From Candidatus Omnitrophota bacterium (GTDB lineage: Bacteria > Omnitrophota > Gorgyraeia > Duberdicusellales > 4484-171), in the NCBI GenBank assembly GCA_037146775.1, contig JBAWWL010000001.1, positions 325,464 to 389,463 on the forward strand: a DNA stretch of 64,000 nucleotides, written 5' to 3'. A program made the position numbers and the translations under genes. Shown piece after piece: positions 1 through 36,828 of the stretch; within the stretch, counting starts at the first letter, position 1; each line of letters starts with the position of its first letter. Under the pieces are notes generated by a model, which searched no databases, had not been told where the DNA came from, and saw nothing but the letters and a program-made list of their open reading frames with translations.

Positions 1-44
1 CGCAAAAAGATAAGAACCTCAAGGAAATTGCGTCGAATCTTCCA

Positions 45-377
45 TTGAATATTAAAGATATCCAGAACGCCCACAAGAGTTTTAGCGAGGTATCGAATAT
101 TCCGCCGACCAGTATCGTTGCAGGAAAAAGATATTCTCTTTTTACTGGAAGTTTCGATATTTCTACGAAAGAAGAGCTAATACGGTGGATATTGGATCTG
201 CATGAGAAAATAGCGCGTAGTAAAAGTGGGCTTCCGTGGCTTGAGTTATCCGGTGACCGCTTGGCTATCCGAGTAGACTATTTCCCGAGCGATAAGTTAA
301 AAGTCGTGCCTGGGCAAGGTTGGAGAAGCCCCTATTACTTAGATGTTCTGGCATCAATCTACAAGGAGATAAGGTAA
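45..377 (+). CDS. hypothetical protein, first gene of the PLD-SNF2 operon (frame stays open to the window start, so it may be 5'-truncated)
   Basis: 110-aa ORF whose stop lies 3 nt before the next gene; no recognisable motif; same strand and tightly coupled to the downstream genes. Confidence 0.4.
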   Translation: MNIKDIQNAHKSFSEVSNIPPTSIVAGKRYSLFTGSFDISTKEELIRWILDLHEKIARSKSGLPWLELSGDRLAIRVDYFPSDKLKVVPGQGWRSPYYLDVLASIYKEIR

Positions 378-380
378 ATT

Positions 381-2303
381 ATGCACATTGTATTACGAGA
401 ACAGCTTTCTGATCACATACGCATATTGGAATCTGTCGAGTGTGCGCTATTTACGTCATTCACTTTTGATCCAGTTTTTTTTGAAAATAACATATTGCCC
501 ATTCTTTTTGATATCGAAAAAGCCAGTGAGGTACGGCGAAGAGCCCAGATTAATGAAAGACTGGCTGCTTCTCCATGTGTTGTGTTTTATGATAATTCGA
601 CAATGCCTTCGGGTGGTGGCATCTACCGGTACCAGGCAAAAGGGATTCATCTACGCGATAAATTCTTTCATCCAAAAAACGCGATTGTTGCAGGTTATTA
701 TCAGGATGCTCCGATGGTTATAGTGTCAGCCTCATCCGCAAACCTGAAATATCAGGCATGGGGTAGTAATGTGGAAGCCGCAGCCTTTATACAAATCAAC
801 AGTAAAAAACAACAAGCATATCGCACGCTATACAAGTTCTGCATCTATCTAAGAGACGAACTGAAGGTGTCAGATAGCGATGCTCTCAATAGAATGATCG
901 CTTTTCTCAACAAGATGCCTGAGTCGAATGTTCGTTTCCCTGATTATGATGGCGAACTTTATTTCTCTCCACTTGCAGGAAACAGGAAAGGCTTCCCAGA
1001 GTTTCTCAATGAAGAGGCCGCTAACAAGAGAGAGAAGCTTGTGGTCTATTCGCCATATTGGGGCGGTAATCTTTCATCCTTAGCTGATAAATTCATGGCA
1101 TCACAAATCGTCGTTCGTCCCGCATTCATGAAGGATTTAAAAACGTACGGATTGACTAAAGATCAGTTGATTCAACTGGGGTCCTTGGAGTGTAGCATAG
1201 AAAAAACTCCTGAGTCAAAAGAGGGATATCGTTTTTGGCACGCGAAAGTATATCTTTTGCATAGTAGCTCTGGTGGAAAAGTACGGCTCGGTATCGGCAG
1301 TTGTAATTTTACCGAAATGGGGCTCTCCGGAGAAAATGGCAACGTAGAATCGATGGTTGTATACAATATTACTAAGGAAGAGGCTGAAGAATTTGATATT
1401 CGGTGCAAAAAACTCGAGATTCCTGAAGAAATGAAAAAGGAGGCAAAAGAAGAGGATTCTCCCCAGCGACCTCCTTTCTTTATCCATGTTATTTTGGACT
1501 GGGAAAAAGAAGTATATCGCGTGGATTTTAAGTGGGAATCCAAATCTATGTGTCAGTCTTGCATGCTCTCTTTGCCCGGAAACGACGATGTGGATCTATT
1601 GAATTTAAAGAATGGGTCACAAATACCGATTACGAATTCTCCAAAGTCAGCAAGGACTTTTAGAATCAGGTATAATTTTGAGACCGAAAACAATGTATTT
1701 GATGGTTTGATATATGAAATAAATATGCGGTTCAGTCAGCGAAATTATACACCCACTCTCGGTTTTCACGACATCTTTGAAAGTTGGTGTCACCATGACG
1801 ATTATTGGGCCGACAACGTGCCAGATGACGGGGGTGATGGCGATAAGGAGGGCGATGAAGAAGATCAAGCTAAGAAGCAGGAAGGGGCAGAGTCCTCAGC
1901 TCCTCAGGAGCTCGATTATTACGAGATTTACCAAGGATTTTATGGTCTTTTTAAAAAACTCGAAACAGGTAAGGAAGGTAGTGGAGCGCTCTCGCGATAT
2001 CTGATAACCCGACCGGACAGTATTTATAATGTAATAAAAAGAATCTCCGACGCAAATTTAGACATAATATCAAAATACATCATTCTAACGGAATGCGAGA
2101 TACTGGTAAAAAAAGTTGAAAATGAAATGGGTGTTAAAGTTGACAAAATGCTCAAAGATGAAATCAAAAAATACCTTCCGAATATTAGGGTGCAAGTGGA
2201 GTCGCTTATAGAAGATAAAGACAAGAAGCGGATAAAAGATAAAAAAGGAGCAGACGCAATAATCTGGTTTGAAAGAGAAATTGAGCGCGCATGGAAAACA
2301 TGA
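381..2303 (+). CDS. phospholipase-D-family (single HKD motif) nuclease-like protein, 640 aa
   Basis: HxK(x)4D...GSxN signature 'FWHAKVYLLHSSSGGKVRLGIGSCNFT' near residue 290; acidic low-complexity stretch (DDGGDGDKEGDEEDQ) in the C-terminal half; 13-nt overlap with the downstream helicase gene. Confidence 0.7.
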   Translation: MHIVLREQLSDHIRILESVECALFTSFTFDPVFFENNILPILFDIEKASEVRRRAQINERLAASPCVVFYDNSTMPSGGGIYRYQAKGIHLRDKFFHPKNAIVAGYYQDAPMVIVSASSANLKYQAWGSNVEAAAFIQINSKKQQAYRTLYKFCIYLRDELKVSDSDALNRMIAFLNKMPESNVRFPDYDGELYFSPLAGNRKGFPEFLNEEAANKREKLVVYSPYWGGNLSSLADKFMASQIVVRPAFMKDLKTYGLTKDQLIQLGSLECSIEKTPESKEGYRFWHAKVYLLHSSSGGKVRLGIGSCNFTEMGLSGENGNVESMVVYNITKEEAEEFDIRCKKLEIPEEMKKEAKEEDSPQRPPFFIHVILDWEKEVYRVDFKWESKSMCQSCMLSLPGNDDVDLLNLKNGSQIPITNSPKSARTFRIRYNFETENNVFDGLIYEINMRFSQRNYTPTLGFHDIFESWCHHDDYWADNVPDDGGDGDKEGDEEDQAKKQEGAESSAPQELDYYEIYQGFYGLFKKLETGKEGSGALSRYLITRPDSIYNVIKRISDANLDIISKYIILTECEILVKKVENEMGVKVDKMLKDEIKKYLPNIRVQVESLIEDKDKKRIKDKKGADAIIWFEREIERAWKT

Positions 2304-5300
2304 TAATCGAGCCTTTTATCAAGAAAATATTACCAGATGATGTAGAGAGCCTGATGAATTTTAATCCACCCGGAGCCCTTGATAAATACAAGTCTATGCA
2401 TAATTTGCAGAAAGAGGGTGTAGCGGCGATCTATAACATACTTACGGAAAAGAATTTCGCTTATTTAGCGGATGAAGTTGGAATGGGGAAGACTTATCAG
2501 GCAATAGGGCTGATTACGCTGCTTTGGAATCTCAAAAGAAACGCGCGTATAGTAGTGATTTGTCCGCGGGTTAACCTGCAAATAAAATGGCAGCGTGATT
2601 ATCGAAATTTTATCATCAATAATTATCGCGGCCACATGAAAAAACAGGGCGATGATATCGTGAAGAGCGTTCTTTTGAATAAACCAGTGGTCAATCCACG
2701 TATTTGCCATAATCTGCGGCAATTTGCGTTGGAATTACAATCCCCAGAACGCCAACTATGTATTCTTCGCTATAGCTCATTTACGCGTCCCGTGTTTCTA
2801 AAAAGGGAAGATGAGCGTGATCCGCTAGGCGCATGGAACAATGCGGTTGAGATGATGAAGTTTTATGGTATCCATCCTTCTCATAAAGATAAGAGACTTG
2901 TAGAGGGGTGCGGCGATGGCATGTCGCTTCAATTCAATGAATGGTTTGCCGAAGCATTCAATGAAATGCTTGTCAATGCGTGCGAAAAAGAGAAAGGCAA
3001 AAAAGCGATCGATTTGCTGATATTTGACGAGGGGCAATATCTAAGGAATGAAAACCAGACGAACAGCGTTATACTTAAAGCTTTTGAAGGCAGAGTCAAT
3101 AAGTGGTTATTTCTGAGTGCGACGCCGATTCATTCCGGAAAAGAAAACATTCAAAATGTGATAAATCGATATGCCTGCCCAAAGTATATTGCTGATAGCG
3201 ATCTTGCTGATACAAAAAAGCTTCAAATTAAAATGAAGGAGTTCTTAGTCCGGCGTCCACGCGAATATTTTGTTCGAAATAGTACGGACAGAGATAAATT
3301 ATGGGCAAAATACAAATACCGTTACCATAATGAGGAAGAAAGCAAAATCAAGAATATGTCTCCTATGGAGTCGCTGGTAATGGCCGTAGTCCAAAAGAAT
3401 CTTGTAAAAATACTAGGAGGAAAGAATAACAGGTTTAAGATTGGATGTCTGACGTCTTTCGAAAGCTTGCAAGCCTCTGTGTACAACCAAGAAAACAAGA
3501 AAGCGCTGGCGTGCGATGATGAACAAGACGATGCGAACGAGGAAGCTGAAATAATGAAGTCGTCAGACTTATACGTGTCACAGGATGATGTAAAAAAAGG
3601 TCATGCCGAGGATCTAAAAGATATACCTGATATGAAATTCGTGGATGGGTTTGCACGACGTTATAAAAATACATTTGGCATAGAAATACCGCACCCAAAG
3701 GTTGACTTCGTAGTAGATCAGGTATCGAAAAAAGCGCTCAATAATGGCGAAAAATTTGTTGTTTTCACGCGAAGGATTAACGCCGTAGACGAGATCGTTC
3801 GTAGAATAAATGATGAATACGAAAAATGGATTAGGGAAAGAATTAATTCTGTGTGGAACATCGATATTGATGCCCTTTCAAAGAACCAAGGCACTGATCC
3901 CGACGAGATGATATCTGACGATCCTGATAGCGATGGTCTCGAAGCGCGCGGAAAAGGACTTCTTCAGGAGGCGAATCAAAAAGGAAATTGGCTTTTTCGG
4001 TATAGACAAACGTTCAGAGAAAGCGGTCGCAATGCCATGATGTTTGAAGAGAATTGGTTTAGATATTTTTCAGAAATTAATAATATACCTTTAAAAGATA
4101 TCGTTTCGAAAATACCCGATGAGCTTTGGAATGAAAGCTGGGTATTTGCGAATAGGCAAAAAGGGGCCAAAACAGCAAAAGTGATTCCATCCGAGAGATT
4201 CCAATATTTATTAGTGCAGACTGTAAAAAAATATCCCGAGATTCTTGGCCTAAAAGATGGAACCGTAAACAAGTGGCAAAACTTCTTTTCAAAGCGCTAT
4301 CCTTTGGTTACGGAACAACATTGTGGCGAGAAACAAAGAGCGAAGAATGAAAATCTGATCACGTATAAAGGTTTCTGGGACATCATTCGTGAAAAGATTT
4401 CTGAACCCCAAGGAGAGGTAATAAAGATATTCGATTTGATGAGAAAAAGTATGGATATTAATGACGAGAATGATCTTCTTAAAAGAGAGGTACTTAAAAA
4501 TTGTTTGTGGCAAACGATTCGATTGACAGATGCTATCCTTGATCTTTATTGCGCCAATGATACTGCCGGTGGCGCCAGTGCGCCTGTAGAAGATGCGGTA
4601 AATGAGTATTGCAAATATCTATTTGGTGATAGTGATTATGCGAAGCTTTTGAGAAACCAAATGAAAGAATGGGTAGAGCATATAGGTCTTATTTTGACAA
4701 ATTGTTTTAGCAATGATGATTTTGATTTAGCAGGTTATGCGGCCAGGGAAAGCTACGTCGAATTGCGCAATCCTCAATTTGCCGTTGGTATGACTGGAGG
4801 GAATCCAAACAAGACCGCCCTCAGTCAGTTTAAGACACCTGGTTACCCGAGAGTTATTGTGTGCACCGATATATTAAAGGAAGGCGAAGATCTTCACCTC
4901 TTCTGTGATCAGATTATTCATTATGGTGTAGCCTGGACATCTGGTGACTTGGAACAGCGGGTGGGAAGGATAGATCGTTACTTTTCAATGATTGAAAGAA
5001 AGCTTTACGGCTCTTCTAAACCAGAAAAAGAAAAATTGAATATTTATTACCCGCACTTGACTCAGTCGGTTGAAAAATATCAGATTGAAAGGGTTATCAA
5101 TCGTGCGAAAGAAGCGGAATTGATCATGGACAATATCGGTATTGATGAGCACACTGAGGGCAGGCAAATTGTCCTAGGAGTTATTGCAAATCGCCCCTTG
5201 GGCGTTGCGTTTTTAAACACGAAACCCGTTTTAGGCGAGCATCCCTTTACTCCGTCGTTTGCCAGTATAAAATCTTCAGGACTGCCGATTTTTTCAGAAC

Positions 5301-6130
5301 AAGATGCAAAGACGACCTTAAAAAAATATGAGAATATTTTTCAAAATCTTGGAGAAGAGCTCGAAAAGCAGGGATATACGTTATCATGTAAAGGAGCTGG
5401 ACGATTTGAAGATCCTTTTAAAATATCCAATTCTTCCAATAACATCGTATTAGAGTGTAAGTGGGAATTTATTCCCCAAATTTCGTCATATGCCATCAAA
5501 TTGAGCAAGCAAATTAAGATTGATGAGCTCAAGGCTAGCAAATTTCCGATTGCCGAGCATCGCGAATTACATGGCAAAGAATATCGTTATTTTCGCTCTC
5601 ACAGAGTGTTGATTCATGAGGATGCGATCATTGAGGATCTTTCTCGGCGCACATTTTCTGCTATTCGGCTGCTTATTGATGCGGATCATTTAAGTAAATG
5701 GGATGAAAATACAACGGAAAAGTTATCCAAATATTTTGTGAAAGATGAGCATGTCGTAACCGAGATTGATCCGCATTGCATTAAAGTGGCCTTTCGATTC
5801 AATACGCGAAAACATACAACCAAGATTAAAACATTTTTGGATTTGATAGTGGTCTCATCTATGGTGGGAGAAATTAAGTCACTTAAAGAGTGCCCAAAGT
5901 TTTTTGATGAGAATGGAGTATGGAATGATGATGTATTTAATAATTGGATACTCGATGAAAACGCGCGACTGAAATTTGGTTATCTTATGAGAAAGGATAA
6001 CGAGTTACGTTTTTGCGACCGTTTATTTCCGGTTGGGTTGGAAGACGCTTTGATCCATAATATTGTGGAAGAAATTGCTCGAACCGCAGATGTGTACGAA
6101 TCGCATATTATTGGTGAAGATATTGTGTGA
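2291..6130 (+). CDS. SNF2-family SF2 helicase-like ATPase, 1279 aa, with a ~650-aa uncharacterised C-terminal region
   Basis: motif I 'LADEVGMGKT', Ia 'VVICPR', II 'LIFDEGQYLRN' (DExx-LRN), III 'LFLSATP', V/VI 'VIVCTDILKEGEDL...QRVGRIDR'. Confidence 0.8.
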   Translation: MENMIIEPFIKKILPDDVESLMNFNPPGALDKYKSMHNLQKEGVAAIYNILTEKNFAYLADEVGMGKTYQAIGLITLLWNLKRNARIVVICPRVNLQIKWQRDYRNFIINNYRGHMKKQGDDIVKSVLLNKPVVNPRICHNLRQFALELQSPERQLCILRYSSFTRPVFLKREDERDPLGAWNNAVEMMKFYGIHPSHKDKRLVEGCGDGMSLQFNEWFAEAFNEMLVNACEKEKGKKAIDLLIFDEGQYLRNENQTNSVILKAFEGRVNKWLFLSATPIHSGKENIQNVINRYACPKYIADSDLADTKKLQIKMKEFLVRRPREYFVRNSTDRDKLWAKYKYRYHNEEESKIKNMSPMESLVMAVVQKNLVKILGGKNNRFKIGCLTSFESLQASVYNQENKKALACDDEQDDANEEAEIMKSSDLYVSQDDVKKGHAEDLKDIPDMKFVDGFARRYKNTFGIEIPHPKVDFVVDQVSKKALNNGEKFVVFTRRINAVDEIVRRINDEYEKWIRERINSVWNIDIDALSKNQGTDPDEMISDDPDSDGLEARGKGLLQEANQKGNWLFRYRQTFRESGRNAMMFEENWFRYFSEINNIPLKDIVSKIPDELWNESWVFANRQKGAKTAKVIPSERFQYLLVQTVKKYPEILGLKDGTVNKWQNFFSKRYPLVTEQHCGEKQRAKNENLITYKGFWDIIREKISEPQGEVIKIFDLMRKSMDINDENDLLKREVLKNCLWQTIRLTDAILDLYCANDTAGGASAPVEDAVNEYCKYLFGDSDYAKLLRNQMKEWVEHIGLILTNCFSNDDFDLAGYAARESYVELRNPQFAVGMTGGNPNKTALSQFKTPGYPRVIVCTDILKEGEDLHLFCDQIIHYGVAWTSGDLEQRVGRIDRYFSMIERKLYGSSKPEKEKLNIYYPHLTQSVEKYQIERVINRAKEAELIMDNIGIDEHTEGRQIVLGVIANRPLGVAFLNTKPVLGEHPFTPSFASIKSSGLPIFSEQDAKTTLKKYENIFQNLGEELEKQGYTLSCKGAGRFEDPFKISNSSNNIVLECKWEFIPQISSYAIKLSKQIKIDELKASKFPIAEHRELHGKEYRYFRSHRVLIHEDAIIEDLSRRTFSAIRLLIDADHLSKWDENTTEKLSKYFVKDEHVVTEIDPHCIKVAFRFNTRKHTTKIKTFLDLIVVSSMVGEIKSLKECPKFFDENGVWNDDVFNNWILDENARLKFGYLMRKDNELRFCDRLFPVGLEDALIHNIVEEIARTADVYESHIIGEDIV

Positions 6131-6572: not shown

Positions 6573-6767
6573 TTGACGAGGCTTTTCTCTATGGACGACC
6601 TACGCAAATACCTAACAGTCCGAGAAGCAGCGACGAGACTCGACATCAGCGAAGAGTCTGTGCGCGACCTGATTAACGAAAAAGAACTAAAGGCAGTCAA
6701 GATAGGACAATGGAGAATAAAACCAGACGAGCTCGAAAGGTTTATAAGGTCAAGGAGTAACCTTTAA
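6573..6767 (+). CDS. small helix-turn-helix DNA-binding protein (excisionase/AlpA/MerR-like HTH), possible start at the internal Met at 6591
   Basis: 'LTVREAATRLDISEESVRDLINEKELKAVKIGQWRI' matches the HTH_17 pattern; sits immediately upstream of hsdR. Confidence 0.5.
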   Translation: MTRLFSMDDLRKYLTVREAATRLDISEESVRDLINEKELKAVKIGQWRIKPDELERFIRSRSNL

Positions 6768-10823: not shown

Positions 10824-11399
10824 ATGAATCTTACTTGTCCCAAAAAAGAAGCTTTGCTTCTTGATGATAAGATCGCAAAACTTGCGAAAGAATTGTTAAC
10901 TGATGAACAAATTAAATTAGCTGATAGCCTCTCTCAAGCGATGGTGTCTTCAAAAGCGAAAAGAACCGAAGCCGTAATGAAATTGCAAAAAATTGTAGGA
11001 ATGAAACCCAAGAGACCAATGTATTATATGAATTGGGAACTAAATTACTTGCCAAGATGGACAAGAAACTCTACAAAATATTTAGGGGACTATATTGACC
11101 TTTTAGTAAAAATATTTGTGGCAGATAAGCTAAAAGACGAAAAATATAAATCGGTCTCTTTGGGAGCAAACCTAAAATATATGCCTAATATTATGCCTGA
11201 AGAGATCATAACCGCACTCAGAACCTATAACGAATTAATATACGTTCCAGCAAAGCACGATTTTGAAGTAAAAAATAGGCGGCACAGGTTTACATGCAGA
11301 GAAGTAGTATATGCCTGTTTAATAACAATGGAACTGGGCAAAAGAATTATTCCGCTCTCACAAAAAGTAAAAGATTGGACTGAAGATAAAAGAAATTAG
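10824..11399 (+). CDS. hypothetical 191-aa protein inserted between hsdS and hsdM
   Basis: ORF with balanced composition, same strand, 12 nt after hsdS and 14 nt before hsdM; no recognisable motif. Confidence 0.4.
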   Translation: MNLTCPKKEALLLDDKIAKLAKELLTDEQIKLADSLSQAMVSSKAKRTEAVMKLQKIVGMKPKRPMYYMNWELNYLPRWTRNSTKYLGDYIDLLVKIFVADKLKDEKYKSVSLGANLKYMPNIMPEEIITALRTYNELIYVPAKHDFEVKNRRHRFTCREVVYACLITMELGKRIIPLSQKVKDWTEDKRN

Positions 11400-21327: not shown

Positions 21328-22638
21328 TTAGGGTGTTTGTGTGGCTTTTTGTTTTTGGTCTACAAGCGCCATCATTTCCAGCATCATTTGTTTTTTCATG
21401 GAAGCAAACTGGTCATTGAGGAATTGCACTTGTTGTTGCAGATGCTGAATCTCTACATCTTTTTGCTTAGCCTCCTCAACAATAACCTGCCTATCCAAAG
21501 GACGCTTACAGTTTTGGCAAACCGTTTCGTCAAAACCCGCTGCCGTATTACAAAAAGCACAAGTCCTAGTGCCTAAACCCTCTTGGCCTTTAGAATCACC
21601 AGCCAAAAGTCCTCGCCTTTGCAATTCCTTCTTAAAAGCCTCATCCTGACTTGAGAGGTCATAGGTTTTTAGCTGGCTTGTGCTCGTCCATCTTGCCGCG
21701 TGTTGGATTTCCATGTCGCTTTCGCCCCTAAGCCTCCTAATCGTAACACCATTACGTTTGAGGCTGTAGCACGTCACGGGCTTAATGATCCCCAGATTCT
21801 TACAAGCAGTCCGAATAAACTTGTTAACGTTATTTGGCTTGAGCTGCTTCAACGCGTTAGTCGTCCCAATATTTACGAAAAGAAACGACTGCTTGTTGGC
21901 CTTGTTTGGGTGAATGCTCAGCCACTTTGCAAGGTAAGGGAAGCTGTCAATACACTGAATAAGGCCAGTTCCTTCCTTGCCATGCTCGCTAATGTAAATC
22001 TTGGCATAATTATCAAACAACTTAACATCCTCAAGCTTCACATAAAGAAGTTCTTGCGGCCTTGCCAAACTCTCAAGCGACAAAGTGAGGAAGGCTTGAA
22101 TCCTTGGGTCTTTACCAAAATAGCCAACGAGGCTTTCAAACTCTTCATGGCTGAACTTGTCCTTTCGCATCTTCTGCCGGCTCTTATCAATCTTTGGTGA
22201 GATGTGGCGCACAGCGTAAGGCACAAGCGTTCCGTCCGGCCTGCCCTTTTCGTCTTTTTCCGGAAACAAAACTTTCCAAACAAGCTTAAGCTCCCTGATA
22301 AAAGTCTCTTTGCTCTGGGGAGTATTATAGACTTGGTGCATTGCCGCCATCAAAGCATCCATATCATCCCTGTCGCACTCCGCAAAATCTTTAACAAAAA
22401 AGTTGCCCGCAAACTTCACACACTGAATAATCCGAAGCCTCCTAATAAAAGACAAATCCCTAGCCCCAAAATGATTAAACAACTTCAAATAATATTCTAG
22501 GTTTGGCTTATGCTTGCAAACATACTTAGAACGCCCATCATTGCCAGCGCAAGCAATGATGTTTCTAAAATCTGCCACAAAATGTTCATACCTTTTTTTG
22601 TTCCCATAAATATCGTCCTCTGCCATCTTACACACCAT
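21328..22638 (-). CDS. tyrosine site-specific recombinase/integrase with a C-terminal zinc-ribbon and coiled-coil extension
   Basis: box I 'LESLARPQELLYVKLEDV', box II 'HAARWTSTSQLKTY' (HxxR...Y); 'CAFCNTAAGFDETVCQNCKRP' zinc ribbon. Confidence 0.8.
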   Translation of the reverse strand: MVCKMAEDDIYGNKKRYEHFVADFRNIIACAGNDGRSKYVCKHKPNLEYYLKLFNHFGARDLSFIRRLRIIQCVKFAGNFFVKDFAECDRDDMDALMAAMHQVYNTPQSKETFIRELKLVWKVLFPEKDEKGRPDGTLVPYAVRHISPKIDKSRQKMRKDKFSHEEFESLVGYFGKDPRIQAFLTLSLESLARPQELLYVKLEDVKLFDNYAKIYISEHGKEGTGLIQCIDSFPYLAKWLSIHPNKANKQSFLFVNIGTTNALKQLKPNNVNKFIRTACKNLGIIKPVTCYSLKRNGVTIRRLRGESDMEIQHAARWTSTSQLKTYDLSSQDEAFKKELQRRGLLAGDSKGQEGLGTRTCAFCNTAAGFDETVCQNCKRPLDRQVIVEEAKQKDVEIQHLQQQVQFLNDQFASMKKQMMLEMMALVDQKQKATQTP

Positions 22639-23606: not shown

Positions 23607-25904
23607 ATGCGGCAAGCAAAGGTAACGGTTCAAGTCTTAATATTTCTGGTAATTGCTTCAGCAGCCCAGGCAACATCCGGAGCATTAAGTCCCCTATCTA
23701 ACCAAGAAGGGTTGTTCAGTCTTAGCAACGGTAATTCTTTCAATATCAAGGCAACAGGGCTGAACGGCGACACCTGTGTCTATGAAATAACCTACAGTGG
23801 ATATGTTAAAGAGACTGGTAATCTTGATGTTGGTTGCTCTTACATTTACAAGTATCCGGGAAGCAAGGCGATATTGACTCATAAAGGATTCAATTACCAA
23901 ACAAGCAAGTGCGAATTCACTCTTTTCGAATATACCGGAAGTGCATCACAATGGTCGACTGTATGCAATGAGGACTGTTCAAGCTGCTCAAGCACATGCC
24001 CCTGTACGGGCGGAGCAGTAGTGGACTGCAACGAATGCGAATACACAGGATATGACTGCACAGGAAACACTCTTTACTACTGTACAAGCCAGGGAAACTG
24101 CATTGTGAGGGAATTGGTTGATGTCTGCGGAGAAAACGAAGTCTGTGACCCCACAGATGGAATCTGTGAAGGAGTAGGAACACCCTGCCCTTATGAATGC
24201 TGCAAATACACAAACGCATATCTAGACAAGAACTGTCCCACTGGATACGCCTGCTCAAATTATCAATGCATACAACAGTGCACCAATAATGCTGAGCAGA
24301 AATGTTTTAACGGTAATGTCTATTGGTATGACAGCTGCGGCAACAAAGGAAACCTCTATGACACCTGCGGCTCAGAAGAAACTTGCAACAACGGATATTG
24401 CAGTTCTACCAGGACTACCTGTCCTTACGGATGCTGTGATAGTGACGATAGATATTTTGACAAAAGCTGCTCTTCAGGATATGAATGCAAATCTCAATCT
24501 TGCGAAAAGATATGTACCAGCAAGTACTCCACCAAATGCTACAACAACGATGTTTACTACTATGACAGCTGCGGAAGCAAAGAGACAATAAAGTACGATT
24601 GTAAGATCGATGAGAAATGCAACGGCAATTATTGTGTATCCACAAAATCTGCCTGTCCTCATGAATGCTGTATAGGCAATCAGAATTATTTTGATAAATC
24701 ATGTCCTGGCAAGGACAATTGCGAAAACAACAAGTGCATCGAACATAAAGGCGCTTGTCCTTACGGATGCTGTGACATATTTTCCGAATATGAAGAGAAG
24801 ACCTGTGAAGCGGGTTTTTCCTGCCTTGCAAATAAATGCGAGCAAATGAGTCCTGACAGTATTGAACTTCACAGCAAAATTAAACCTCACGATTCTTTGC
24901 TTTTGACCTTGTTAGACGGGCTTACTGGAAGGGACTATTCCGAACAAAAGTTCAACACTAACCTAAGAAAAGTGTATGAATACGTAAGCAGCATACCTTA
25001 CAGATACGATGACGAAAACAGCGCGGGCTGTATAAAGGGGAGCAAAGATTGCGGAGATGGAAGGCCTGGAATAGATTATTCTCAAGAACCCAAAGAGACT
25101 ATCTCAGAAAACATGGGAGACTGTGAAGACCACGCAATATTATTACAGAGCATGAACGAAGCATTATTCTACAAAACATATGGAACGATTCCTAAAGGCA
25201 GACTCTACCTAGTGTGTGGATGTATAGACTTCAATAATGACGGAGAAGAAGAAGGATGCCACTGCTGGAACATAATTCTGGATGATGACCCCTTATCAAG
25301 CTCAGGTAATACTAATAACCAAGCAATTACACGAGAAGTCCTGGTCGGCGACGTAGGCATCGGAGATATAAAATCAAATCCCCGTAAGATTACTGTGGAA
25401 ATCAAGCCTTATGTTAGCGGCGAGACGGATAAATCAATGACCAGGCAAGCTGTGTTATGGAATAACAAAAAATGGAATGAACTGGAATCAACATGGAAAA
25501 ACCCTTTTGATTTTTATGTTAACCTAAAATATCCCTTTAGCGAGGTATGGTACGTAGCGACAAGTGAAGAATTTTATTACGCACCAGATTTCACGAAAAT
25601 AGGCTGCGAATATGAACAAAGGTTACTATGGTACCTAGGATTAGACAACCTATGCCCTGCTGAAAAAAGCGCATCACCAGGCACAAAAGAAACAGCACCT
25701 CAACCAGAAACTAAAGCAATACAGCCAGAAACTACCAAAGTAACCTGGTGGAAAAAAGTATTAGAAGGCGACACAGAAAATAAAGACAATACCTCTGGGC
25801 AGCCAAAGCAAGAGCAGAAGGCAGATGGAACAAACGAAGCACCTCCACAACAAAAGCCATCCAAAGAAAAGACTTGGTGGAAACCCTGGACATGGCGCTG
25901 GTAA
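23607..25904 (+). CDS. secreted cysteine-rich repeat protein, 765 aa, with C-terminal transglutaminase-like cysteine-protease domain and Trp-rich tail
   Basis: signal peptide; at least four 'CPYGCC...D..C..GY.C....C' modules alternating with 'C...VY.YDSCG...' modules; 'GDCEDHAILL' and 'GCHCWNIILDDD' match the transglutaminase Cys and His-Asp motifs; C-terminal 'WWKPWTWRW'. Confidence 0.7.
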   Translation: MRQAKVTVQVLIFLVIASAAQATSGALSPLSNQEGLFSLSNGNSFNIKATGLNGDTCVYEITYSGYVKETGNLDVGCSYIYKYPGSKAILTHKGFNYQTSKCEFTLFEYTGSASQWSTVCNEDCSSCSSTCPCTGGAVVDCNECEYTGYDCTGNTLYYCTSQGNCIVRELVDVCGENEVCDPTDGICEGVGTPCPYECCKYTNAYLDKNCPTGYACSNYQCIQQCTNNAEQKCFNGNVYWYDSCGNKGNLYDTCGSEETCNNGYCSSTRTTCPYGCCDSDDRYFDKSCSSGYECKSQSCEKICTSKYSTKCYNNDVYYYDSCGSKETIKYDCKIDEKCNGNYCVSTKSACPHECCIGNQNYFDKSCPGKDNCENNKCIEHKGACPYGCCDIFSEYEEKTCEAGFSCLANKCEQMSPDSIELHSKIKPHDSLLLTLLDGLTGRDYSEQKFNTNLRKVYEYVSSIPYRYDDENSAGCIKGSKDCGDGRPGIDYSQEPKETISENMGDCEDHAILLQSMNEALFYKTYGTIPKGRLYLVCGCIDFNNDGEEEGCHCWNIILDDDPLSSSGNTNNQAITREVLVGDVGIGDIKSNPRKITVEIKPYVSGETDKSMTRQAVLWNNKKWNELESTWKNPFDFYVNLKYPFSEVWYVATSEEFYYAPDFTKIGCEYEQRLLWYLGLDNLCPAEKSASPGTKETAPQPETKAIQPETTKVTWWKKVLEGDTENKDNTSGQPKQEQKADGTNEAPPQQKPSKEKTWWKPWTWRW

Positions 25905-34494: not shown

Positions 34495-36828
34495 ATGAAA
34501 AACCAACAAAGAATACAAGACTTCATGACAGAAATGTTCCTAGGTAATGCAAGAAATAATTACCAATACGAATGTGGCCGTTGGAGCCTTCCTGCCGTTT
34601 ACCCTTACCAGATTTGCGCCGAACCCATTTTTGAACTTTTTGACCCAATGCAGACTTACTCACTATCCACCAATACCGCCAGATTGGTCAGAAGGGTTAG
34701 TAGTAGCAGTAGTAGTAGTCGGGTAGTAAGGGAAGTAAAGCTAAATTATTTTGAAAAAGTTGAGTGGCTAAAGTTTGAGAGCTTGCTTAATTGTTTTTCC
34801 GCCTTTGAGAAATCGGTAAGCTTCGAAATTTTCTGCCTAAATGGTTCTGTAACTTTCTTTATCGGCAGTGCTTCTTTGGATCAGCTAAATATTGTCTGCA
34901 ATGTTTTCCAGAGCTACTTTCCCGGCACTGTTTTTAGGGAAGTTCCTGATCCTTTGCTGACCTTAAATGATTGCGGAGAGGGATTTTTTGTTTGCGATTT
35001 TTACTGCTCTGCTCCTTATCACAAAAAGGTATCTTCTGACAGGACGGTTGGTTGCCTTAATTCTGTTTTCAAAACATTCTCTGGCCTGAAGAGCGGGGAG
35101 TGCGGTTTTTATCAGGTCATCTTTGAGCCTGCAAAGGATGAATGGGGCAAAAACGTCAAGGCTCTTAGTGCCGCAGAAAAGCTTGCAAGCAACACCTATC
35201 CTTCCGGCGCAAGCCCCTCTGATGGCTTCAAAGACGCGGCTTTGCCTTTGTATGCCTGCCGGGTACGCTTGGGCTGTGTTGTTGGGAAGGATAGCGGTGT
35301 TGTTGACGCTATTAAGCAGTTTGGCAGTTGTTTTGTTCATGGCGGAAAAGCCTTGAGTTTTCGGACTGAAAAGGACTTTCTTGACGTTGTAAAAAAACGG
35401 GATGTGGCCGAAATGGTTGGCGGCAGATTCGGGTTTTGTTCCGGCCTTTTGCTTGACACCAAGGAGCTTGCTTCTTTTGTTTACTTTCCTGACCGAAGCA
35501 TTACCAGTTTTGGGCTAAAGATTAACTTCACAAGAGGATTTATGGTGAGCAAAGCTTTGCTATCAGGCCGCCCAATAGGATTTAGCTGCTCAAGCGGCAG
35601 CGATGACGTCATCTGCCTGCCAACAAACATTCAGAACAAGTGCATGTGGATTCTTGGCACTGCAAGGAAAGGCAAAAGTGTTTCGATGGCTAATCAGTTC
35701 CTTTGGCTTGCAGACAACGGCGACGGAGCGGATTTTATTGATCCTCACCGCACAACAGTATTTGAACTCCTCGGTCTCTTGCCCGATGAAGTCTTAGATA
35801 GGGTTATTTATTTGGATTATGACGATGACGATTATGTTGTGGACTTCAATCCTTTTGATGAAGCTGATGAAGAGTCTTTTGGCAGGCTGACTATCGAGTT
35901 TGTGAACAGCTTCAAGAACCTGTTTGAGGCGGCAAGTTTCCACCGCATGAGCCATTTGCTTAGGATGGCGGTTTATGCCCTCTTTGTACTGAAAAAAAAT
36001 ATCAGCAGTATTCCTGCTCTTTTTTCCCGGACAGATGAGGGAGATGCTTTAAGGAAGGCTGTTGTTGATAAGTGCAAAAATGAAGAGGTGACGCGGTTTT
36101 GGAAAAGCGAGTTTTATGGTTATCGTAAAGATGCTTTTAGCCCAATCCTTAACAGGTTTTCCGCACTTCTTATGGACGCTAAGGCTTCGCGTATTTTCTC
36201 AAGAGAAAAAAACAAGGTTGATTTGGCAGACGCTATGGATTCCGGCAAGTTATTGCTTGAGGCGTTGCCTAACAGCATTGATGTTTCCGGGATTATCGGT
36301 GGAATGAGGATTGGGCAGACTCAGAAATGCGCTTTTGCCCGGACAGCAAAAAGGGATAGTTGCCGCAGAGAGTTTCATTTGTTGGTCGATGAGTTTCACC
36401 GTTTTTCTACAGGCAAAACGCTTGAGAGCATCATTAACGAAACTGTAAAGGCTGGACTTCATTTGTGCGCGGCTAATCAGGAGACTGCGCAACTTAGTGA
36501 TGAGTTGTTGAGGGCTGTTTTGAGCATGCCGAACATCATGTTGTTCAATGTCAATTTCTTGGATGCAAAGAAGCTGTTGCCTGTTTTCAATAATCGTATA
36601 GGTGTTGAAGACATTACAGGGCTTGGTGTGGGGGAGTGTTTTGTTAAGTTTGGTGATGAGATTGTGGACGTTAAATGTTTTGCGCCTAGAAAGGATTATT
36701 CAGAAGAAAAGGCCAAAAGAATCATTGAGGAGAGCAGAAAAAAATATTACACACCAGTCTCTATGCTCCAAAAAGAAAAACCAGAAGCAAGAGGCGAGAA
36801 GCGCGCAAGAATTATTGACTCATTCTAA
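34495..36828 (+). CDS. large P-loop NTPase of the VirB4/HerA/T4CP class, 777 aa (possible DNA-transfer ATPase)
   Basis: Walker A 'GTARKGKS', Walker B 'HLLVDEFHRF', downstream 'CAANQETAQL'; Ser-run encoded by an AGT repeat near the N-terminus. Confidence 0.5.
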   Translation: MKNQQRIQDFMTEMFLGNARNNYQYECGRWSLPAVYPYQICAEPIFELFDPMQTYSLSTNTARLVRRVSSSSSSSRVVREVKLNYFEKVEWLKFESLLNCFSAFEKSVSFEIFCLNGSVTFFIGSASLDQLNIVCNVFQSYFPGTVFREVPDPLLTLNDCGEGFFVCDFYCSAPYHKKVSSDRTVGCLNSVFKTFSGLKSGECGFYQVIFEPAKDEWGKNVKALSAAEKLASNTYPSGASPSDGFKDAALPLYACRVRLGCVVGKDSGVVDAIKQFGSCFVHGGKALSFRTEKDFLDVVKKRDVAEMVGGRFGFCSGLLLDTKELASFVYFPDRSITSFGLKINFTRGFMVSKALLSGRPIGFSCSSGSDDVICLPTNIQNKCMWILGTARKGKSVSMANQFLWLADNGDGADFIDPHRTTVFELLGLLPDEVLDRVIYLDYDDDDYVVDFNPFDEADEESFGRLTIEFVNSFKNLFEAASFHRMSHLLRMAVYALFVLKKNISSIPALFSRTDEGDALRKAVVDKCKNEEVTRFWKSEFYGYRKDAFSPILNRFSALLMDAKASRIFSREKNKVDLADAMDSGKLLLEALPNSIDVSGIIGGMRIGQTQKCAFARTAKRDSCRREFHLLVDEFHRFSTGKTLESIINETVKAGLHLCAANQETAQLSDELLRAVLSMPNIMLFNVNFLDAKKLLPVFNNRIGVEDITGLGVGECFVKFGDEIVDVKCFAPRKDYSEEKAKRIIEESRKKYYTPVSMLQKEKPEARGEKRARIIDSF

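What the first reader, a model, noticed from the sequence alone, without database searches (positions are those of the whole stretch)
45..6130. Three-gene operon of a small protein, a single-HKD PLD-family nuclease and an SNF2-type ATPase: candidate undescribed defence module
Three tightly coupled genes (3-nt gap, then a 13-nt overlap) encode a 110-aa protein of unknown function, a 640-aa protein with one HxK...GSxN phospholipase-D/Nuc-type nuclease motif, and a 1279-aa protein with a complete SNF2-like helicase motif set (LADEVGMGKT, DEGQ..LRN, SATP, QRVGRIDR). The operon sits at the head of a defence island, directly upstream of a Type I R-M system and a Dcm-associated restriction module. 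SNF2 plus PLD pairing is known from DISARM (DrmD/DrmC), and helicase plus PLD from Mokosh. Neither fits here, because there is no DrmA/DrmB, no methylase in the operon, and the SNF2 here is not the RNA-helicase type. The composition argues for a nucleic-acid-targeting immunity system whose architecture I cannot place in any named family.
Basis: partly seen in the sequence, partly recalled or inferred. Interest (0 to 1): 0.8.

Follow-up and report, generated by a model that had tools for sequence, protein, structure and literature searches.

The report
Catalogued but untested PLD–SNF2 defence trio
The three genes are real and form a conserved nuclease, motor and partner-protein cassette that very likely cuts foreign DNA, but a defence-system database already lists it as the untested candidate PDC-M27, and two details of the first description are wrong.

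Summary
The three co-directional ORFs exist as described: a 3-nt gap, a 13-nt overlap and a full SNF2 motif set. Two details are wrong.

- The "110-aa small protein" is the C-terminal end of a 412-aa gene cut by the window edge. The frame is open from base 3. An identical contig supplies the rest.

PADLOC-DB models give all three proteins their best hits to PDC-M27A, B and C. PDC-M27 is a three-gene "phage defence candidate" predicted by guilt-by-embedding (Payne et al. 2024 preprint). I found no experimental test of it.

The A-B-C order is kept in every one of about 21 independent loci from many phyla. No methyltransferase or other fourth gene is constant.

The nearest validated system is Azaca (ZacABC). 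B and C resemble ZacB and ZacC only weakly, and A shows no ZacA/DUF6361 signal and has no solved structural analogue. DISARM, Dpd and Mokosh membership fail.

The most likely mechanism is an ATP-driven translocase–PLD nuclease complex that degrades foreign DNA.

Verdict: a divergent new member of a catalogued but uncharacterised kind. Interest is moderate.

The parts
1..377 (+). 3' end of gene A (PDC-M27A family). Only the last ~125 codons lie in the window. The full gene is 412 aa (L001:3221-4459).
   Evidence: The frame is open from base 3. The identical contig L001 gives the 412-aa ORF. PADLOC PDC-M27A scores E 4.7e-15 for the full protein and 5.2e-7 for the fragment. The AF2 model has pLDDT 92.4, is mostly helical, and gives only winged-helix subdomain matches in the PDB.
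381..2303 (+). Gene B: 640-aa two-lobed PLD-superfamily nuclease (PDC-M27B family) with a C-terminal beta/helical extension.
669..743 (+). First HKD-type motif of B (H97-P-K99 ... S119-A-N121).
   Evidence: H97, K99, S119 and N121 are invariant in 25 homologues.
1239..1307 (+). Second HKD-type motif of B (H287-A-K289 ... G306-S307-C308-N309).
   Evidence: H287, K289, G306, S307, C308 and N309 are invariant in 25 homologues.
2291..6130 (+). Gene C: 1279-aa SNF2-like SF2 ATPase/translocase (PDC-M27C family).
   Evidence: PADLOC PDC-M27C E 4.8e-95; DrmD 3.9e-20; ZacC 1.3e-17. Pfam SNF2-rel_dom, ResIII and Helicase_C. It overlaps B by 13 nt. B/C overlaps of 4-53 nt occur in 11 of 13 loci.
2465..2494 (+). 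Helicase motif I (Walker A) of C, LADEVGMGKT, residues 59-68.
   Evidence: L59, A60, D61, E62, V63, G64, G66, K67 and T68 are invariant in 13 homologues.
3026..3037 (+). Helicase motif II (Walker B) of C, DEGQ, residues 246-249.
   Evidence: D246 and E247 are invariant.
4955..4978 (+). Helicase motif VI of C, QRVGRIDR, residues 889-896.
   Evidence: Q889, R890, G892, R893, D895 and R896 are invariant.
5138..6127 (+). Variable C-terminal extension of C (about residues 950-1279). It is absent or different in short-form homologues.
   Evidence: Alignment occupancy falls to 0.3-0.5 and identity to 0.05-0.14 after residue ~950. No Pfam domain and no PDB sequence match.

Best explanation
The locus is a divergent member, from a Candidatus Omnitrophota MAG, of the three-gene cassette that PADLOC lists as phage defence candidate PDC-M27.

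The parts are:
- A: a ~410-aa helical protein with winged-helix-like subdomain(s).
- B: a ~640-aa PLD-superfamily nuclease with two HKD motifs.
- C: an SNF2-like ATPase.

The proposed mechanism, inferred by analogy with Azaca and other ATP-dependent PLD restriction enzymes, is as follows:
1. The three proteins assemble into one complex.
2. C uses ATP hydrolysis to translocate on or remodel double-stranded DNA.
3. B cuts DNA without a metal ion through a covalent phosphohistidine intermediate. Its single composite active site is built from its two HKD halves (H97/K99/N121 and H287/K289/N309).
4. A acts as a DNA-binding, specificity or regulatory subunit.

No methyltransferase travels with the trio. 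Self/non-self discrimination is therefore most likely Type IV-like, meaning recognition of modified or otherwise foreign DNA, rather than protection by methylation.

Shown here: domain identities, intact and conserved catalytic motifs, conserved gene order, and frequent defence-island context.
Inferred: complex formation, DNA cleavage, the target, and the anti-phage phenotype.
For: - Best PADLOC hits are PDC-M27A, B and C for all three proteins. 63 of 64 A-family members hit PDC-M27A.
- A-B-C keep the same order and strand, adjacent or overlapping, in every locus where the contig allows. That is about 21 independent loci: Omnitrophota, Thermodesulfobacteriota, Ignavibacteriaceae, Polyangiaceae, Burkholderia, Caballeronia, Pseudomonas, Achromobacter, Massilia, Duganella, Colwellia, Pseudoalteromonas and a Rhodoferax plasmid.
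- Both HKD motifs of B are invariant. The B model superposes on two-lobed PLDs, on the PLD4 nuclease and on the SauUSI restriction enzyme.
- Helicase motifs I, II, III, V and VI of C are invariant.
- No constant fourth gene or methylase appears among 103 neighbouring proteins.
- The Azaca precedent: ZacA, ZacB and ZacC are all required for cleavage of T4 DNA, and the ZacC Walker A motif is required (bioRxiv 10.1101/2025.07.10.664194).
- PDC-M27 was derived from cassettes embedded in BREX, DISARM or Type I R-M systems.
Against: - I found no experimental test of PDC-M27. No paper in the library mentions it, and other PDC candidates have failed when tested.
- Many neighbourhoods are housekeeping genes rather than defence genes.
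- A has no detectable similarity to ZacA/DUF6361, so the Azaca analogy may not extend to the third subunit.
- Similarity of B and C to ZacB and ZacC is weak (37 and 62 bits).
- Complex formation, substrate and target specificity were not and could not be tested here.
Confidence: 0.68

Rival explanations
1. The trio is a true Azaca system (ZacABC) that has simply diverged. It would then work exactly as Azaca does: a three-subunit complex that prefers hypermodified T-even phage DNA.
For: It has the same three-part layout of unknown protein, then two-HKD PLD, then SF2 helicase. The weak PADLOC hits are collinear: ZacB at B residues 94-335 against profile positions 108-341, and ZacC at C residues 767-900 against profile positions 764-902. 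The canonical PDC-M27 on the Rhodoferax plasmid also hits ZacB and ZacC weakly.
Against: None of 64 A-family proteins match Pfam DUF6361 or the PADLOC ZacA model. B and C score far better on the PDC-M27 models (139 and 318 bits) than on the Zac models (37 and 62 bits). C scores slightly better on DrmD than on ZacC.
Confidence: 0.12
2. The trio is not autonomous. It is an accessory or effector arm of a larger system, either the adjacent Type I R-M (using its methylation for self-protection) or a DISARM/Dpd-like system whose other genes lie elsewhere.
For: PDC candidates were found embedded in R-M, BREX or DISARM systems. Here the trio sits 660 nt upstream of hsdR. C has sub-threshold hits to DrmD and DpdE. 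A Dcm methylase 7 kb downstream also matches DrmMII models.
Against: - Most homologous loci have no Type I R-M. N6_Mtase appears in 1 of 103 neighbouring proteins.
- DrmD and DpdE equivalog scores are 79 and 65 bits against cut-offs of 610 and 500.
- No gene upstream or downstream in the same contig is annotated with a DrmA/DrmB-type domain.
Confidence: 0.08
3. The trio serves a mobile element or DNA metabolism rather than anti-phage immunity. Possible roles are plasmid or ICE competition, exclusion, or replication/repair remodelling.
For: The canonical copy lies on a mobilizable plasmid next to a Tn3 transposase and a recombinase. Several loci carry resolvase, integrase or prophage-type genes nearby. 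Many neighbours are non-defence genes. SNF2 ATPases and PLD enzymes such as Tdp1 also act in repair.
Against: The patchy distribution across phyla, the lack of a conserved chromosomal context, and the repeated neighbourhood with McrBC, SIR2-HerA, R-M and WYL regulators are typical of defence cassettes. Anti-plasmid activity would still count as defence in the broad sense.
Confidence: 0.12

Closest known systems
PADLOC phage defence candidate PDC-M27 (Payne et al., bioRxiv 10.1101/2024.01.29.577857; cassette CAS_00110, listed with the number 127)
   Same: All three proteins hit the PDC-M27A, B and C models best. Gene order and sizes are the same. A canonical example on a Rhodoferax antarcticus plasmid scores E 1.9e-182, 1.3e-242 and 0.
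   Different: The window copy is a distant member, scoring 53 bits (A), 139 bits (B) and 318 bits (C). The A model covers only its C-terminal third. It comes from Candidatus Omnitrophota and has the long form of C with a ~330-aa variable C-terminal extension.
Azaca (ZacA/ZacB/ZacC; the only experimentally validated system of this layout that I found)
   Same: Three genes: an uncharacterised protein, a PLD nuclease and an SF2 helicase. Hits to ZacB and ZacC are weak but collinear. Azaca needs all three proteins and the helicase Walker A motif for DNA cleavage.
   Different: ZacA carries DUF6361, and no A-family member matches it. B and C sit far outside the Zac models' strong-scoring range.
DISARM class 1 (DrmD SNF2 helicase + DrmC PLD, with DrmA, DrmB and DrmMI)
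   Same: It pairs an SNF2-type ATPase with a PLD nuclease. C has its best non-PDC hit to DrmD.
   Different: The DrmD equivalog score is far below its cut-off (78.8 against 610). There is no DrmA/DrmB and no operon methylase. B is a 640-aa two-HKD protein, whereas the PADLOC DrmC model is 256 positions long.
ATP-dependent PLD restriction enzymes (SauUSI Type IV; NgoAVII/CglI R+N proteins; BfiI)
   Different: Those enzymes use single-HKD domains that dimerise, while B carries both halves in one chain. Nuclease and ATPase are separate proteins here, with a third subunit. There is no cognate methylase as in NgoAVII/CglI (the NgoAVII/CglI and single-HKD points rest on my own knowledge).

Membership tests
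PDC-M27 (PADLOC candidate) | Protein A matches the PDC-M27A model. | tested here: met
   E 4.7e-15 and 53 bits for the full 412-aa protein. It is the only PADLOC hit and covers profile positions 304-448 of 460. 63 of 64 family members hit the model.
PDC-M27 (PADLOC candidate) | Protein B matches PDC-M27B as its best hit. | tested here: met
   E 4.5e-41 and 139 bits, covering B residues 92-616 against profile positions 104-621 of 635.
PDC-M27 (PADLOC candidate) | Protein C matches PDC-M27C as its best hit. | tested here: met
   E 4.8e-95 (PDLC04556) and 7.6e-91 (PDLC04554). The next family is DrmD at 3.9e-20.
PDC-M27 (PADLOC candidate) | The three genes are adjacent, co-directional and in the order A>B>C. 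| tested here: met
   The same holds in ~21 homologous loci.
PDC-M27 (PADLOC candidate) | The PADLOC program itself calls the system, using its own per-model thresholds and system rules. | not testable with these tools
   Only the HMM library was available. PADLOC's coverage and E-value rules were not run, and the partial coverage of the A model could fail them.
Azaca (ZacABC) | A ZacA protein with the DUF6361 domain. | tested here: not met
   No A-family member (0 of 64) matches Pfam DUF6361 at E<=0.01 or PADLOC ZacA at E<=0.001.
Azaca (ZacABC) | A ZacB PLD nuclease. | tested here: inconclusive
   ZacB model E 4.4e-10 and 37 bits, much weaker than PDC-M27B. B is related but not clearly a member.
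Azaca (ZacABC) | A ZacC SF2 helicase. | tested here: inconclusive
   ZacC model E 1.3e-17 and 62 bits, below both DrmD and PDC-M27C.
DISARM | A DrmD SNF2 helicase that reaches the NCBIfam equivalog cut-off. | tested here: not met
   NF038317 scores 78.8 bits against a cut-off of 610. NF038318 scores 35.7 against 950.
DISARM | Core DrmA + DrmB genes and a DrmM methylase in the operon. | tested here: not met
   The upstream genes on the same contig are an amidohydrolase fragment, an unknown protein and a DUF2779 protein. The downstream genes are an HTH_17 protein and hsdR/S/M. None carries a DrmA/DrmB-type annotation.
Mokosh | Mko RNA-helicase and PLD proteins. | tested here: not met
   B hits only PDC-M27B and ZacB at E<=0.1. 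No Mko model is among the 25 C hits shown, out of 33 in total.
Dpd (7-deazaguanine DNA modification/restriction) | A DpdE helicase at the equivalog cut-off. | tested here: not met
   NF041062 scores 64.6 bits against a cut-off of 500.
PLD superfamily, two-lobed (two HKD motifs in one chain) | Two HxK...SxN motifs and a bilobed PLD fold. | tested here: met
   [not shown]
SNF2-related SF2 ATPases | The SNF2-rel_dom domain and helicase motifs I-VI. | tested here: met
   PF00176 scores 44.5 bits (cut-off 24.9), ResIII 48.6 and Helicase_C 34.9. The motifs are invariant in 13 homologues. PDB sequence hits are Rad26 and Fft3.

The most novel reading that the evidence does not exclude
PDC-M27 is a defence family mechanistically distinct from Azaca. 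Its A subunit has a fold with no solved analogue and supplies target recognition. In a subset of lineages, including this Omnitrophota genome, the trio is functionally coupled to an upstream Cas4-like/3'-5' exonuclease (DUF2779) protein. In some lineages an IetA-like double-AAA ATPase and a WYL regulator join it, giving a 4-6-gene super-system.
Probability: 0.3. Interest if true: 0.6.

Novelty: new member of a known kind. Interest (0 to 1): 0.4.

Why it matters
PDC-M27 is one of 145 computationally predicted defence candidates, and I found no experimental test of it. This locus widens its known range to Candidatus Omnitrophota and to a very divergent sequence branch.

The analysis also clarifies the architecture:
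- A is a full-size ~410-aa subunit with no solved structural analogue.
- B is a self-contained two-HKD nuclease.
- C is an SNF2 motor with a variable C-terminal extension.

It also reveals recurrent optional partners: DUF2779, an AAA ATPase and WYL. If the system is validated, comparing it with Azaca would show how PLD–SNF2 machines tell foreign DNA from self without a methylase. On its own, the finding is an annotation refinement, not a discovery of a new kind of system.

Tried and rejected
- **Small 110-aa first gene:** rejected. The frame is open to the window edge, and the full 412-aa gene was recovered from the identical contig.
- **DISARM, Dpd, Zorya or BREX helicase membership:** all far below curated cut-offs.
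- **ZacA identity of A:** no hit in 64 family members. ZacA sequences could not be obtained for a profile-profile test, because the Azaca preprint has no text supplement held.
- **Solved-structure relatives by sequence:** none for A, only BfiI weakly (E 0.054) for B, and only SNF2 remodellers weakly for C. The C-terminal extension of C gave nothing.
- **First genome scan with the single B protein:** found nothing. The profile scan worked.
- **Phage genomes:** no homologue of B.
- **Promoter and terminator scan:** counts did not differ from shuffled sequence.
- **Literature:** no paper mentions PDC-M27, and I found no validation.
Full report
**1. The observation**

The ORF listing finds ORFs at 45-377 (110 aa, TTG start), 381-2303 (640 aa) and 2291-6130 (1279 aa) on the + strand. 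The gap is 3 nt and the overlap 13 nt. The quoted SNF2 motifs are all in the translation.

Two details do not hold.

First, the frame of ORF1 is open from base 3 to 377, with no stop before the TTG (sequence read). A look-up of protein B recovered a MAG contig (GCA_964613555.1, CAZTHQ010000016.1, locus L001). It is identical to the window over 12,303 nt with 0 mismatches, and window base 1 equals L001 position 4083. On that contig the gene starts at L001:3221 and encodes 412 aa ending in exactly the window's sequence. The "small protein" is therefore the last quarter of a full-size gene, called A here.

Second, B has two HKD-type motifs: H97-x-K99...S119-x-N121 and H287-x-K289...G306-S307-x-N309. 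Both are invariant in 25 homologues with 24-50% identity. Pfam reports two PLDc_2 stretches.

**2. Identity**

Against PADLOC-DB, the three proteins have their best hits to PDC-M27 models:
- A: PDC-M27A, E 4.7e-15 for the full protein and 5.2e-7 for the window fragment. The fragment matches profile positions 367-449 of 460, which already showed it was a C-terminal piece.
- B: PDC-M27B, E 4.5e-41.
- C: PDC-M27C, E 4.8e-95.

Weaker hits are ZacB (4.4e-10) for B, and DrmD (3.9e-20), ZacC (1.3e-17) and DpdE (9.1e-16) for C.

NCBIfam (June 2026) has no model for A or B. C scores far below the equivalog cut-offs: DrmD 78.8 against 610, and DpdE 64.6 against 500.

PDC stands for "phage defence candidate". 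Payne et al. (bioRxiv 10.1101/2024.01.29.577857) derived 145 single- and multi-gene candidates from genes embedded in BREX, DISARM and Type I R-M systems, added them to PADLOC, and call them untested. Their supplementary table lists a three-family cassette, CAS_00110, with the number 127, marked "Assign as candidate PDC-M27".

No paper in the searchable library mentions PDC-M27. The validation studies I checked tested other PDCs.

A canonical PDC-M27 lies on a mobilizable Rhodoferax antarcticus plasmid, with E 1.9e-182, 1.3e-242 and 0 for A, B and C. RefSeq annotates its genes only as a hypothetical protein, a PLD-like protein and a DEAD/DEAH helicase.

**3. Conservation**

A profile scan of one genome per species found 17 loci. 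Contig look-ups of further homologues added more.

Wherever the contig extends far enough, A, B and C are present in that order, on one strand, adjacent or overlapping. That is about 21 independent loci. They span Thermodesulfobacteriota, Ignavibacteriaceae, Polyangiaceae, several Burkholderiales, Pseudomonas, Colwellia and Pseudoalteromonas. B/C overlaps of 4-53 nt occur in 11 of 13 loci.

Two copies look decayed. C is truncated in L005, and B is shortened with a 528-nt gap before C in L018.

An exhaustive HMMER search finds 424 representatives of the A family at 50% clustering.

Among 103 proteins flanking the trio in 15 loci, no Pfam family occurs more than three times. N6_Mtase occurs once. 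There is therefore no constant fourth gene and no linked methylase.

Defence neighbours are nonetheless frequent:
- Elsewhere: McrBC and SIR2+HerA, and a second PLD+SNF2 module.

**4. Anatomy**

*C.* Motifs I (L59-T68), II (D246, E247), III (S276-P279), V and VI (Q889-R896) are invariant in 13 homologues. The conserved core ends near residue 950. The last ~330 residues are variable or absent and have no Pfam or PDB match.

*A.* The model is confident, with pLDDT 92.4 and pTM 0.90. It is mostly helical.
- Foldseek finds nothing at E<=0.001, so there is no solved global analogue.
- The secondary-structure pattern of residues ~305-377 (three helices, then a beta hairpin) suggests that the part inside the window is such a winged helix. 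This is inference, because the tool does not give aligned ranges.
- The N-terminal ~20 residues are low-confidence yet carry conserved residues (D11, D22, P23, G25). That fits an interaction peptide, which is also inference.

**5. Mechanism**

The only validated system of this layout that I found is Azaca. In a 2025 preprint (10.1101/2025.07.10.664194):
- BmAzaca protected more than 10^6-fold against T4.
- It preferentially degraded T4 DNA in vitro.
- It needed ZacA, ZacB and ZacC together.
- It lost activity when the nuclease site or the ZacC Walker A motif was mutated.
- ZacA is described there as a DUF6361 protein.

By analogy, and from established PLD chemistry (covalent phosphohistidine intermediate, metal-independent) and SNF2 function (dsDNA translocation), I propose this model:
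1. A-B-C form a complex.
2. C provides ATP-driven translocation.
3. B cuts DNA.
4. A provides DNA binding, specificity or control.

Without a linked methylase, discrimination is most likely Type IV-like. I put 0.68 on the general statement that this is an ATP-dependent nuclease complex acting against foreign DNA. I put much less on the target.

**6. Membership and rivals**

- PDC-M27: all HMM and synteny criteria were met. PADLOC's own system rules were not run.
- Azaca: ZacA/DUF6361 was tested and not met, with 0 of 64 A-family proteins matching. ZacB and ZacC are only weakly similar. The trio works like Azaca but is not shown to be Azaca.
- DISARM, Dpd and Mokosh: not met.
- Dependence on the neighbouring Type I R-M is unlikely, because most homologous loci lack one.
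- A mobile-element or DNA-metabolism role cannot be excluded, given the plasmid/Tn3 context and the many non-defence neighbours.

**7. An extra observation**

On the window's own contig, a 494-aa protein lies 13 nt upstream of A. It has a Cas4-like N-terminal half and a DUF2779 C-terminal domain. Majorek et al. 2014 class DUF2779 as an RNase-H-like 3'-5' exonuclease that co-occurs with a PD-(D/E)XK domain. A 2026 paper calls the family uncharacterised "solo Cas4" fusions.

Full-length homologues sit just upstream of the trio in two other, mutually distant loci. One is the Rhodoferax plasmid copy (33% identity, E 1.6e-68). The other is L029.

Two further neighbours recur:
- An IetA-like double-AAA ATPase, in L016, L020, L029 and the P0015 contig.
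- A WYL regulator, in L008, L020 and the P0015 contig.

These are facultative partners, present in 3-4 of ~21 loci. I judge that this is too often to be chance, but I did not compute a background rate.

**8. Verdict**

The feature is real. However, it is not uncatalogued, its first gene was truncated by the window, and its nuclease is a two-HKD enzyme. Novelty: a new and divergent member of a known but uncharacterised candidate kind. Interest: 0.4.

Noticed in passing
L001:1724-3208 (same contig, 13 nt upstream of gene A; outside the window): A 494-aa protein with a Cas4-like PD-(D/E)XK half and a DUF2779 (RNase-H-like exonuclease) domain heads the four-gene co-directional cluster. Full-length homologues lie just upstream of PDC-M27 trios on a Rhodoferax plasmid (L020:5081-6583) and in L029:2634-4139. 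It is absent from the other ~18 loci.
   Followed up: partly
L020:2937-5033, L029:135-2297, L016:336-2513, and the P0015 contig (gene at 1312-3480): A ~700-720-aa double-AAA ATPase (PADLOC IetA-like, E 2.6e-40) recurs upstream of PDC-M27 trios. WYL-domain regulators recur too (L020:6589-7551, L008:2607-3362, P0015 contig). Together with DUF2779 they may form an optional accessory module.
   Followed up: partly
window 10824-11399 (+): A 191-aa ORF is embedded between hsdS and hsdM of the Type I R-M system. It has no Pfam or PADLOC hit. It is an "embedded" gene of the sort used for guilt-by-embedding predictions.
   Followed up: partly
[not shown]
   Followed up: partly
window 6591-6767 (+): A 58-aa HTH_17 protein lies immediately upstream of hsdR. 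A 10/12 sigma-70-like promoter match sits about 70 nt before it. It may be a controller of the R-M unit, and it marks the end of the A-B-C transcription unit.
   Followed up: no
window 21328-22638 (-): A tyrosine recombinase (Phage_integrase family) a few kb beyond the restriction modules suggests that the defence island is, or was, part of an integrative element.
   Followed up: no
L021:827-6461 (= L004:2818-8455): In an Ignavibacteriaceae MAG the PDC-M27 trio is directly preceded by another PLD (175 aa) + SNF2 (1040 aa) + 452-aa unknown module. Two PLD-SNF2 systems therefore sit in tandem.
   Followed up: no
L005:11845-13245 and L018:2030-4034: Two homologous loci look decayed. C is truncated to ~467 aa in a Polyangiaceae MAG. 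B is shortened to ~491 aa, with a 528-nt gap before C, in Pseudoalteromonas sp. BSi20652.
   Followed up: no
window 23607-25904 (+) and 34495-36828 (+): Two large ORFs (765 aa and 777 aa) near the island have no Pfam hit. The 765-aa ORF also has no PADLOC hit.
   Followed up: no
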